The position numbers are program-made. DNA of 64,000 nucleotides from Escherichia coli (lineage in GTDB: Bacteria; Pseudomonadota; Gammaproteobacteria; Enterobacterales; Enterobacteriaceae), in NCBI RefSeq assembly GCF_045037415.1, contig NZ_CP173438.1; one strand, written 5' to 3'. Each line of letters begins with the position of its first letter. The stretch's first letter is position 1. Shown in pieces: positions 29,001 to 32,000 of the stretch.

Positions 29001-32000
29001 GATGAAGACATCAGCATTGAAGGGCTGATGGAACACATCCCGGGGCCGGACTTCCCGACGGCGGCAATCATTAACGGTCGTCGCGGTATTGAAGAAGCTT
29101 ACCGTACCGGTCGCGGCAAGGTATATATCCGTGCCCGTGCCGAAGTAGAAGTTGACGCCAAAACCGGACGTGAAACCATTATCGTCCACGAAATTCCGTA
29201 TCAGGTGAACAAAGCGCGCCTGATCGAAAAAATTGCGGAACTGGTAAAAGAAAAACGCGTGGAAGGCATCAGCGCGCTGCGTGACGAGTCTGACAAAGAC
29301 GGTATGCGCATCGTGATTGAAGTCAAACGCGATGCGGTCGGTGAAGTGGTGCTCAACAACCTCTACTCCCAGACCCAGTTGCAGGTTTCTTTCGGTATTA
29401 ACATGGTGGCATTGCACCATGGTCAGCCGAAGATCATGAACCTGAAAGACATCATCGCGGCGTTTGTTCGTCACCGCCGTGAAGTGGTGACCCGTCGTAC
29501 CATTTTCGAACTGCGTAAAGCTCGCGATCGTGCTCATATTCTTGAAGCATTAGCCGTGGCGCTGGCGAACATCGACCCGATCATCGAACTGATCCGTCAT
29601 GCGCCGACGCCTGCAGAAGCGAAAACTGCGCTGGTTGCTAATCCGTGGCAGCTGGGCAACGTTGCTGCGATGCTGGAACGTGCGGGCGATGATGCTGCGC
29701 GTCCGGAATGGCTGGAGCCAGAGTTCGGCGTGCGTGATGGTCTGTACTACCTGACCGAACAGCAAGCTCAGGCGATTCTGGATCTGCGTTTGCAGAAACT
29801 GACCGGCCTTGAGCACGAAAAACTGCTCGACGAATACAAAGAGCTGCTGGATCAGATTGCGGAGCTGTTGCGTATTCTGGGTAGCGCCGATCGTCTGATG
29901 GAAGTGATCCGTGAAGAGCTGGAGCTGGTTCGTGAACAGTTCGGTGACAAACGTCGTACCGAAATCACCGCTAACAGCGCCGACATCAACCTGGAAGATC
30001 TGATCACACAGGAAGATGTGGTGGTCACGCTTTCTCACCAGGGTTACGTGAAGTATCAGCCGCTTTCTGAATACGAAGCGCAGCGTCGTGGCGGGAAAGG
30101 TAAATCTGCCGCACGTATTAAAGAAGAAGACTTTATTGACCGACTGCTGGTGGCGAACACCCACGACCATATTCTGTGCTTCTCCAGCCGTGGCCGCGTC
30201 TATTCGATGAAGGTCTACCAGTTGCCAGAAGCTACTCGTGGCGCACGTGGTCGTCCGATCGTCAACCTGCTGCCGCTGGAACAGGACGAACGTATCACCG
30301 CGATCCTGCCGGTGACCGAGTTTGAAGAAGGCGTGAAAGTCTTCATGGCGACCGCTAACGGTACTGTGAAGAAAACCGTCCTCACCGAGTTCAACCGTCT
30401 GCGTACCGCCGGTAAAGTGGCGATCAAACTGGTTGACGGCGATGAGCTGATCGGCGTTGACCTGACCAGCGGCGAAGACGAAGTAATGCTGTTCTCCGCT
30501 GAAGGTAAAGTGGTGCGCTTTAAAGAGTCTTCTGTCCGTGCGATGGGCTGCAACACCACCGGTGTTCGTGGTATTCGTTTAGGCGAAGGCGATAAAGTCG
30601 TCTCTCTGATCGTGCCTCGTGGCGATGGCGCAATCCTCACCGCAACGCAGAACGGTTATGGTAAACGTACCGCAGTGGCGGAATACCCAACCAAGTCGCG
30701 TGCGACGAAAGGGGTTATCTCCATCAAGGTTACCGAACGTAACGGTTTAGTGGTTGGCGCGGTGCAGGTAGATGATTGCGACCAGATCATGATGATCACC
30801 GACGCCGGTACGCTGGTACGTACTCGCGTGTCGGAAATCAGCATCGTAGGCCGTAACACCCAGGGCGTAATCCTTATCCGTACTTCGGAAGATGAAAACG
30901 TGGTGGGTCTGCAACGTGTTGCTGAACCGGTTGACGAGGAAGATCTGGATACCATCGACGGCAGTGCCGCGGAAGGGGACGATGAAATCGCTCCGGAAGT
31001 GGACGTTGACGACGAGCCAGAAGAAGAATAATTTCATCGCTTCATGCCAAAAGGGAGCCATCTCCCTTTTTTGAATTGAAAAGTCCAGGCTGTAAAGTCT
31101 GGGCTTTTGTCGTATTAGGGCGCGGTAAAGTTTGGCTGTGCCCGTAAAAAATGGCTGGCTATACACAAGGAATGTGGCAATGAGTGGTGAAAAAAAGGCG
31201 AAAGGCTGGCGGTTTTATGGCCTTGTTGGTTTTGGGGCAATAGCGCTGCTATCCGCTGGCGTATGGGCATTACAATACTCTGGCAGTGGGCCAGAAAAAA
31301 CGTTGTCGCCACTGGTGGTGCACAACAATCTGCAAATCGATCTCAATGAGCCGGACCTCTTTCTCGACAGCGACTCTCTGAGCCAGCTTCCCAAAGATCT
31401 CCTTACCATTCCGTTTCTCCACGATGTTCTGAGCGAAGATTTCGTTTTCTATTATCAGAATCATGCCGATCGTCTGGGCATTGAAGGCAGCATTCGCCGC
31501 ATTGTCTATGAACACGATCTCACGCTGAAAGATAAGCTCTTTTCGTCACTCTTAGACCAGCCCGCGCAGGCGGCACTGTGGCACGATAAACAAGGCCATC
31601 TTTCTCATTATATGGTGCTGATCCAGCGAAGTGGTTTAAGCAAGCTGCTGGAGCCATTGCTGTTTGCCGCTACCAGCGACAGCCAGTTAAGTAAAACGGA
31701 AATCAGTAGCATCAAGATAAATAGTGAAACTATTCCTGTTTATCAGTTGCGCTATAACGGCAATAACGTCCTGATGTTTGCGACTTATCAGGACAAAATA
31801 TTGGCTTTTTCCAGTTCGGATATGCTGTTTAAAGATGACCAACAGGATACCGAAGCCACGGCGATCGCAAGTGATTTGTTGAGTGGTAAAAAACGCTGGG
31901 AAACCCGCTTTGGCCTGGAAGCGCGTACTGCCGAAAAAACGCCAGTACGCCAGCGCATCGTAGTCAGCGCCAGGTTGCTGGGGTTTGGCTACCAGCGATT

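What the first reader, a model, noticed from the sequence alone, without database searches (positions are those of the whole stretch)
30885..30887. Additional GyrA substitution at codon 828 (Ser where I recall Ala in K-12)
The C-terminal region reads ...[18 protein letters not shown] recall K-12 as ...IRTAEDENVV. A828S is, from memory, a neutral lineage polymorphism common in phylogroup B2 strains, so it may hint at background. Codon 678 is Asp here.
Basis: partly seen in the sequence, partly recalled or inferred. Interest (0 to 1): 0.25.

Follow-up and report, generated by a model that had tools for sequence, protein, structure and literature searches.

The report
GyrA Ser828: known ST131/B2 lineage polymorphism
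Codon 828 of the DNA gyrase gene does read serine where E. coli K-12 has alanine, but this is an ordinary, already documented background variant of the B2/ST131 family of gyrA alleles and is not a drug-resistance change.

Summary
gyrA is window 28404..31031 (+). Codon 828 (30885..30887) is TCG (Ser); K-12 MG1655 has GCG (Ala). Codon 678 is Asp in both. The protein differs from K-12 only by S83L, D87N and A828S.

- Ser828 occurs in at least 1,069 of 5,426 complete E. coli genomes (about 20%).
- Every sampled allele at least 98.5% identical to the window carries it. This includes quinolone-target wild-type strains (LF82, NC101, Ecol_745).
- No sampled allele at 97.95% identity or below carries it.
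- The window allele equals a wild-type ST131 allele plus exactly the two nucleotide changes that give S83L and D87N, so Ser828 predates resistance.
- Published data show the D678E+A828S allele in 637 susceptible and 3 resistant isolates.

Three refinements apply.
- Ser828 is not exclusive to B2, because ST648 (phylogroup F) carries it.
- Ala is the ancestral state. It is Ala in 120 of 120 other Enterobacterales species, so strict neutrality is assumed, not shown.
- Asp678 plus Ser828 fits ST131, whereas ST1193 and the other sampled Ser828 alleles have Glu678.

The gyrA sequence is 100% identical to EC958 and JJ1886, and 42.6 kb of the window differs from EC958 by 2 SNPs. This is already known and of low interest.

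The parts
28404..31031 (+). gyrA coding sequence (875 codons plus stop), DNA gyrase subunit A
   Evidence: ORF. It is 99.7% identical in protein to K-12 GyrA and 100% identical in DNA to gyrA of ST131 strains EC958 and JJ1886.
30885..30887 (+). Codon 828, TCG = Ser (K-12 has GCG = Ala). This is the finding.
   Evidence: The haplotype is present in 1,066 + 3 complete genomes.
30435..30437 (+). Codon 678, GAC = Asp, as in K-12. Every sampled Ser828 allele outside the ST131-like group has GAA = Glu.
   Evidence: In 5,426 genomes GAA is found in 1,361 and GAC in 3,648.
28650..28652 (+). Codon 83, TTG = Leu (S83L), a quinolone-resistance change
   Evidence: It is one of only two nucleotides separating the window allele from the QRDR wild-type allele of Ecol_745.
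28662..28664 (+). Codon 87, AAC = Asn (D87N), a quinolone-resistance change
30869..30902 (+). Synonymous sites linked to the Ser828 allele: 30869 A (K-12 G), 30875 T (K-12 C) and 30902 G (K-12 A)
   Evidence: T at 30875 travels with the Ser codon in 1,066 of 1,069 Ser828 genomes.
29994..30926 (+). GyrA C-terminal domain (residues 531-841, repeated beta-hairpin blades). Residue 828 lies in the loop of the last blade.
   Evidence: The sequence matches PDB chain 1zi0_A, the E. coli GyrA C-terminal domain. Repeated blade motifs are listed. In the AlphaFold model, residue 828 is in coil between strands 823-824 and 833-839, with local pLDDT about 63.

Best explanation
Ser828 is an inherited background polymorphism of the gyrA allele family carried by phylogroup B2 E. 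coli (and by ST648). It is a single G-to-T change (GCG to TCG) that arose once from the ancestral Ala and was then passed down by descent. It lies in a hairpin loop of the last blade of the GyrA C-terminal DNA-wrapping domain, about 740 residues from the quinolone-binding region, and has no role in fluoroquinolone resistance. In this window it sits on the ST131 clade C allele. That allele is the quinolone-susceptible ST131 allele (Asp678, Ser828) plus the two point mutations that give S83L and D87N. Shown here: presence, frequency, linkage, ancestral state, independence from QRDR mutations, and allele identity with ST131. Inferred: that the substitution has little or no functional effect.
For: - Codon and K-12 comparison.
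- Frequency by 30-mer haplotype in 5,426 complete genomes: Ser 1,066 + 3, Ala 4,220 + 62, unresolved 75.
- The Ser count matches the two B2-type allele clusters, which are 566 genomes at least 99% identical to the window allele and 478 at least 99% identical to the LF82 allele.
- Sampled alleles with Ser828 and a wild-type QRDR: Ecol_745, 1002W03, LF82, NC101, N1420, GN06489 and Es_ST80.
- Sampled alleles with Ala828: E5, CDE6306, H9Ecoli, E200086 and K-12.
- The window allele differs from the Ecol_745 allele only by C248T and G259A.
- Ancestral state: 120 of 120 other Enterobacterales species have Ala at this position, using four different Ala codons.
- Background: 25 kb around gyrA is 100% identical to ST131 genomes, and there are 2 SNPs in 42,628 nt against EC958.
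- Literature: the D678E+A828S allele was found in 3 resistant and 637 susceptible isolates, and S83L+D87N+A828S in 157 resistant and 2 susceptible (PMC7067475).
- Literature: ST131 is reported as S83L, D87N, A828S and ST1193 as S83L, D87N, D678E, A828S (PMC10638923). EC958 is reported with the same three changes (PMC4398462).
- Literature: a D678E+A828S isolate had a ciprofloxacin MIC about 2,000-fold lower than isolates that also carry S83L+D87N (PMC11220656).
- Location: loop between two strands in the model. The equivalent position in the other blades is variable (V677, G727, T777).
Against: - Ala828 is invariant in all 120 outgroup species despite synonymous codon turnover. The site is therefore under purifying selection elsewhere, and strict neutrality of Ser is not demonstrated.
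- No functional or fitness test was possible.
- Phylogroup could not be cross-tabulated genome by genome. The B2 association rests on allele similarity, a few named reference strains and published ST tables.
- ST648 (phylogroup F) carries Ser828, so the marker is not B2-exclusive.
- Other Escherichia species (E. albertii, E. fergusonii) were not among the outgroups returned.
Confidence: 0.9

Rival explanations
1. A828S is a resistance or compensatory mutation selected by fluoroquinolones. On this reading it adds to the effect of S83L/D87N or offsets their cost, as some surveillance papers imply by listing it among QRDR or 'putatively novel' mutations.
For: It co-occurs with S83L+D87N in this window and in ST131 generally. 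The allele S83L+D87N+A828S was found in 157 resistant and 2 susceptible isolates. PMC6848087 lists it as a putatively novel mutation, and PMC4398462 lists it among mutations 'likely to mediate' resistance.
Against: - Ser828 is present with a wild-type QRDR in seven sampled genomes, including the ST131-type allele of Ecol_745.
- The D678E+A828S allele was found in 637 susceptible and 3 resistant isolates.
- A D678E+A828S isolate had a low ciprofloxacin MIC.
- Codon 828 lies outside the QRDR (residues 67-106, established knowledge), in a different domain.
- The co-occurrence is explained by clonal linkage.
Confidence: 0.03
2. Ser828 is a functionally meaningful, positively selected change in the GyrA C-terminal domain. 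For example, it could tune DNA wrapping or the supercoiling set point, and so contribute to the biology of B2/ExPEC lineages.
For: The site is Ala in 120 of 120 other Enterobacterales species across four synonymous codons. It is the only non-QRDR amino-acid difference from K-12, against 67 synonymous codon differences. The derived state is fixed in a large and successful allele family.
Against: - Ala to Ser is a conservative change.
- The residue is in a loop (moderate confidence).
- The equivalent position differs between blades (V, G, T, A/S).
- About half of the C-terminal-domain sites (152 of 311) are equally invariant among the outgroups, so invariance is not exceptional.
- A single fixed replacement in a deep lineage is what drift predicts.
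- No phenotype has been reported in the papers found.
Confidence: 0.06
3. The Ser codon is a sequencing or assembly error in this window.
For: None.
Against: An identical 30-mer is found in 1,066 independent complete genomes. The whole gene is 100% identical to many ST131 genomes.
Confidence: 0

Closest known systems
gyrA allele of E. coli ST131 clade C / H30R ('gyrA1AB'), as in EC958 and JJ1886
   Same: There is 100% nucleotide identity over all 2,628 bases. The amino-acid changes S83L, D87N and A828S are the same as published for EC958 (PMC4398462) and for ST131 (PMC10638923). The flanking 42.6 kb differs from EC958 by 2 SNPs. PMC7671891 describes acquisition of gyrA1AB as defining subclades C1/C2.
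   Different: Nothing differs in gyrA. The window strain has two private SNPs nearby, in yfaA and the alpha-2-macroglobulin gene.
Quinolone-susceptible ST131-type gyrA allele (Ecol_745, protein WP_001281247.1)
   Same: Asp678 and Ser828 are the same, and every synonymous site is identical.
   Different: The window allele has C248T (S83L) and G259A (D87N). These are the only two differences.
Common B2 gyrA allele (LF82, NC101, Es_ST80; protein WP_001281253.1) and the ST1193 and ST648 alleles
   Same: All carry Ser828 with the same TCG codon, and all but three Ser828 genomes share the linked synonymous T at window 30875.
   Different: These alleles have Glu678 (GAA) where the window has Asp678. 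They are 98.5-98.9% identical in DNA to the window allele. ST648 belongs to phylogroup F, not B2.
K-12 MG1655 GyrA (NP_416734.1)
   Same: Both are 875 residues and collinear, with 872 of 875 residues identical. Both have Asp678.
   Different: K-12 has Ala828, Ser83 and Asp87, and there are 70 nucleotide differences.

Membership tests
DNA gyrase subunit A (GyrA) of E. coli | Full-length collinear identity with reference GyrA, located between ubiG and yfaA | tested here: met
   872 of 875 residues are identical to K-12 with no gaps. The neighbours ubiG and yfaA/yfaT match the K-12 and EC958 annotation.
QRDR fluoroquinolone-resistance mutation | Lies in the quinolone resistance-determining region of GyrA (residues 67-106, established knowledge) | tested here: not met
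   Codon 828 is in the C-terminal domain, about 740 residues downstream of codons 83 and 87.
QRDR fluoroquinolone-resistance mutation | Associated with resistance independently of other target mutations | tested here: not met
   Seven sampled genomes carry Ser828 with a wild-type codon 83 and 87. The published D678E+A828S allele was found in 3 resistant and 637 susceptible isolates.
ST131 clade C (H30R) gyrA1AB allele | Sequence identical to gyrA of reference clade C strains, carrying S83L and D87N | tested here: met
   100% identity over 2,628 nt to EC958, JJ1886, JJ1887 and many records named O25b:H4-ST131. S83L and D87N are present.
Phylogroup B2-specific marker | Present in B2 strains | tested here: met
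   Ser828 is present in LF82, NC101, Es_ST80 and the ST131 strains. Their B2 assignment comes from established knowledge and from ST131 descriptions in the papers found, such as O25b:H4-B2-ST131 in PMC7763464.
Phylogroup B2-specific marker | Absent from all other phylogroups | tested here: not met
   Strain 'ST648' and IMT16316 carry D678E+A828S. ST648 is described as phylogroup F (PMC12736214 abstract). A genome-by-genome phylogroup table could not be built with these tools.
Neutral polymorphism | No effect on enzyme function or fitness | not testable with these tools
   Only indirect evidence is available. In favour: a conservative change in a loop, long persistence, and occurrence in susceptible strains. 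Against: invariance of Ala in 120 outgroup species.

The most novel reading that the evidence does not exclude
Ser828 replaces an Ala that is invariant in 120 other Enterobacterales species. It might subtly alter the GyrA C-terminal domain (DNA wrapping or the supercoiling set point) and be adaptive in B2/ExPEC lineages. It might also interact with S83L/D87N and help explain the low fitness cost of fluoroquinolone resistance in ST131, ST1193 and ST648, all of which carry it.
Probability: 0.06. Interest if true: 0.45.

Novelty: already known. Interest (0 to 1): 0.08.

Why it matters
The finding has little importance in itself. Its practical value is for annotation. A828S, like D678E, should be read as a lineage marker and not as a resistance determinant, although some surveillance papers list it as a 'novel QRDR mutation'. 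Together with Asp678 and the whole-allele identity, it places this window in ST131 clade C, very close to EC958. The only mildly interesting point is that the three major fluoroquinolone-resistant ExPEC clones sampled or reported here (ST131, ST1193, ST648) all carry Ser828 at a site that is Ala in every other Enterobacterales species examined. This is most simply explained by shared allele ancestry.

Tried and rejected
- **Phylogroup cross-tabulation.** I could not cross-tabulate codon 828 against phylogroup for every genome, because the genome search returns only counts and up to 60 rows. I used 30-mer haplotype counts, identity bands, 18 fetched alleles and published ST tables instead.
- **Unresolved genomes.** The four 30-mer haplotypes leave 75 of 5,426 genomes unresolved, presumably because of other nearby variants. 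I did not pursue these.
- **Outgroup scan.** It returned Salmonella, Citrobacter, Klebsiella, Enterobacter, Serratia, Pantoea, Erwinia and others, but no E. albertii, E. fergusonii or E. marmotae. The nearest outgroups are therefore untested.
- **Origin of Asp678 in ST131.** I looked for a recombination block that would explain it. The 29 non-QRDR differences between the window and LF82 alleles show no clear block structure, so I make no claim beyond the four-gamete observation.
- **Structure model.** The model of the C-terminal domain is only moderately confident (mean pLDDT 67.6, about 63 around residue 828). I used it only to say 'loop between two strands'. No solvent exposure or DNA-contact analysis was possible.
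- **FEX669.** Its gyrA is annotated as frameshifted, so I excluded it from the allele comparisons.
- **Sequencing error and resistance role.** I considered both and rejected them (see the rival explanations).

Full report
**1. The observation**

The ORF at window 28404..31031 on the + strand encodes an 875-residue protein. It is 872/875 identical, without gaps, to GyrA of E. coli K-12 MG1655 (NC_000913.3, b2231, fetched as L001). Codon 828 falls at 30885..30887 and reads TCG (Ser). The peptide is [15 protein letters not shown]. K-12 has GCG (Ala) and reads ...IRTAEDENVVG. Codon 678 (30435..30437) is GAC (Asp) in both.

The only amino-acid differences from K-12 are S83L (TCG to TTG), D87N (GAC to AAC) and A828S. 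At the DNA level there are 70 differences (97.34% identity), and 67 codons differ synonymously. Every factual statement in the finding is therefore correct, and its own refutation condition (Ser at 828 in K-12) is not met.

**2. How common Ser828 is**

The sites flanking codon 828 are polymorphic: 30875 T/C and 30902 G/A. I therefore searched four 30-mers whose exact 28-base seed must include both position 30875 and the first base of codon 828, against 5,426 complete E. coli genomes.

| Base at 30875 | Codon 828 | Genomes |
|---|---|---|
| T | Ser (window type) | 1,066 |
| C | Ala (K-12 type) | 4,220 |
| C | Ser | 3 |
| T | Ala | 62 |

The remaining 75 genomes are unresolved. Ser828 is thus present in at least 19.7% of complete genomes and Ala828 in at least 78.9%. 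This collection is biased towards clinical clones, so these are not population frequencies.

**3. Which alleles carry it**

With the whole gene as query, 566 genomes have gyrA at least 99% identical to the window allele. With the LF82 allele as query, 478 are at least 99% identical to it. The window and LF82 alleles are 98.82% identical to each other, so these are treated as two separate clusters. Together they give 1,044, close to the 1,069 Ser828 genomes.

An evenly spaced ranking by similarity to the window allele shows three tiers:
- a tier at 99.4-100%;
- a tier at 98.5-98.8%;
- everything else at 97.9% or below.

I fetched 18 alleles across these tiers and read them.

| Group | Strains | Codon 678 | Codon 828 |
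|---|---|---|---|
| At least 98.48% identical to the window | Ecol_745, 1002W03 | Asp | Ser |
| At least 98.48% identical to the window | NC101, LF82, N1420, GN06489, Es_ST80, 4973, strain 'ST648', IMT16316 | Glu | Ser |
| 97.95% identical or less | E5 (D678E only), CDE6306 (A863V), H9Ecoli, E200086, K-12 | varies | Ala |

**4. It is background, not resistance**

Seven of the Ser828 alleles have wild-type codons 83 and 87: Ecol_745, 1002W03, LF82, NC101, N1420, GN06489 and Es_ST80. The window allele differs from the Ecol_745 allele at exactly two nucleotides, C248T and G259A, which are the S83L and D87N changes. Ser828 was therefore already present on the susceptible ancestor of this allele.

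Published data agree.
- In PMC7067475 the allele with D678E+A828S was found in 3 resistant and 637 susceptible isolates. S83L+D87N+A828S was found in 157 resistant and 2 susceptible isolates.
- In PMC11220656 an isolate with only D678E+A828S had a ciprofloxacin MIC about 2,000-fold lower than isolates that also carried S83L+D87N.
- Some surveillance papers list A828S among QRDR or 'putatively novel' mutations (PMC6848087; PMC4398462). The data above show that this reflects clonal linkage.

**5. What it says about the strain**

The gyrA sequence is 100% identical to EC958, JJ1886, JJ1887 and many records named O25b:H4-ST131. A 25-kb block around gyrA is 100% identical to ST131 genomes. It falls in the at-least-99% band in 570 genomes, the 95-99% band in 753 and the 90-95% band in 4,193. 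Over 42,628 nt the window differs from EC958 by two SNPs.

Published tables give S83L, D87N, A828S for ST131 and S83L, D87N, D678E, A828S for ST1193 (PMC10638923). Asp678 plus Ser828 fits ST131 and not ST1193 or the other Ser828 alleles sampled here. PMC7671891 describes the acquisition of the gyrA1AB allele as the step that defines ST131 subclades C1/C2.

Ser828 alone is not diagnostic of B2. Two ST648 strains carry D678E+A828S, and ST648 is described as phylogroup F (PMC12736214).

**6. Polarity and constraint**

I scanned one genome per bacterial species with a degenerate pattern that left codon 828 free (ATHMGNACNNNNGARGAY...). All 120 have Ala at this position: GCG 89, GCA 16, GCT 12, GCC 3. 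Ala is therefore ancestral and maintained by selection elsewhere, and Ser is derived within E. coli.

This tempers the word 'neutral', but the invariance is not unusual. Among 101 outgroup sequences with a full C-terminal domain, 152 of 311 sites are equally invariant. Codon 678, by contrast, varies freely among the outgroups (Glu 78, Asp 23). No other Escherichia species was among the 120 loci, so the nearest outgroups remain unchecked.

**7. Where the residue sits**

Residues 531-841 match the solved E. coli GyrA C-terminal domain (1zi0_A) and the full-length gyrase structures (6rks and others). The domain is made of repeated hairpin blades whose sequences can be aligned by eye:
- GKVAIKLV-D(678)GDELIG
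- [14 protein letters not shown]
- [15 protein letters not shown]
- GVILIRTS(828)-EDENVVG

Position 828 corresponds to V677, G727 and T777, a position that varies between blades. Residue 678 is the next position, which is always acidic.

An AlphaFold model built on a 50-sequence alignment places residue 828 in the coil between strands 823-824 and 833-839 (mean pLDDT 67.6, about 63 locally). The residue is about 740 positions away from the quinolone-binding residues 83 and 87. From established knowledge, the QRDR is residues 67-106 and the C-terminal domain wraps DNA.

**8. Mechanism and verdict**

The best-supported reading is a single ancestral G-to-T transversion, inherited by descent in the B2-type gyrA allele family. 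It gives a conservative Ala-to-Ser replacement in a surface loop and has no part in drug resistance. Presence, frequency, linkage, polarity and independence from QRDR mutations are shown here. The absence of functional effect is inferred.

The residual alternative is a subtle functional or epistatic role in gyrase from ExPEC lineages. It cannot be excluded without allelic exchange and enzyme assays, and I rate it at about 6%. The variant is already documented in the literature. The finding is correct, ordinary and of low interest.

Noticed in passing
window 32108 and 35900: Over 42,628 nt (window 8404..51031) the window differs from EC958 by only two SNPs, both C to T and both nonsynonymous. 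They are yfaA T310M and R797C in the alpha-2-macroglobulin family gene (yfaS). These are private variants of this strain.
   Followed up: partly
window 30435..30437 and 30885..30887 (gyrA codons 678 and 828): All four combinations of the two polymorphisms exist in E. coli. Asp/Ala is in K-12. Glu/Ala is in O157:H7 PV15-279, listed in both, and in strain E5. Asp/Ser is in the window and in SK1144, listed. Glu/Ser is in LF82. This implies intragenic recombination or recurrent mutation in gyrA. Glu678 (GAA) is in 1,361 genomes and Asp678 (GAC) in 3,648. No clear recombination block was seen between the ST131 and LF82 alleles.
   Followed up: partly
L135 and L136 (ST648 strains), compared with L008 (LF82) and L007 (CDE6306): The gyrA of two ST648 strains (phylogroup F) is 99.35% identical to the B2 strain LF82 allele. 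It is only 97.8% identical to the Ala828/A863V allele of CDE6306, whose A863V matches the change tabulated for ST457; the phylogroup of CDE6306 was not determined. This could reflect shared ancestry of F and B2 at this locus or transfer of a B2 allele.
   Followed up: no
window 28650..28652 and 28662..28664: gyrA carries the classical fluoroquinolone-resistance changes S83L and D87N. Relative to the susceptible ST131-type allele of Ecol_745 these are the only two nucleotide changes in the gene.
   Followed up: yes
L012 (NZ_CP065152.1, strain FEX669): gyrA is annotated as a frameshifted pseudogene in this complete genome. For an essential gene this is almost certainly an assembly error.
   Followed up: no
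E. coli genome collection: One gyrA match, of the Ser828/Asp678 type, lies on a record labelled as a plasmid. One of the 5,426 genomes has no gyrA match at all. These are probably replicon mislabelling or misassembly.
   Followed up: no
window about 10090..11320 (EC958 annotation, L134 1689..2918): Between yfaU and glpC, the EC958 annotation shows an ISNCY-family transposase gene (rpnE) next to a truncated hypothetical gene.
   Followed up: no
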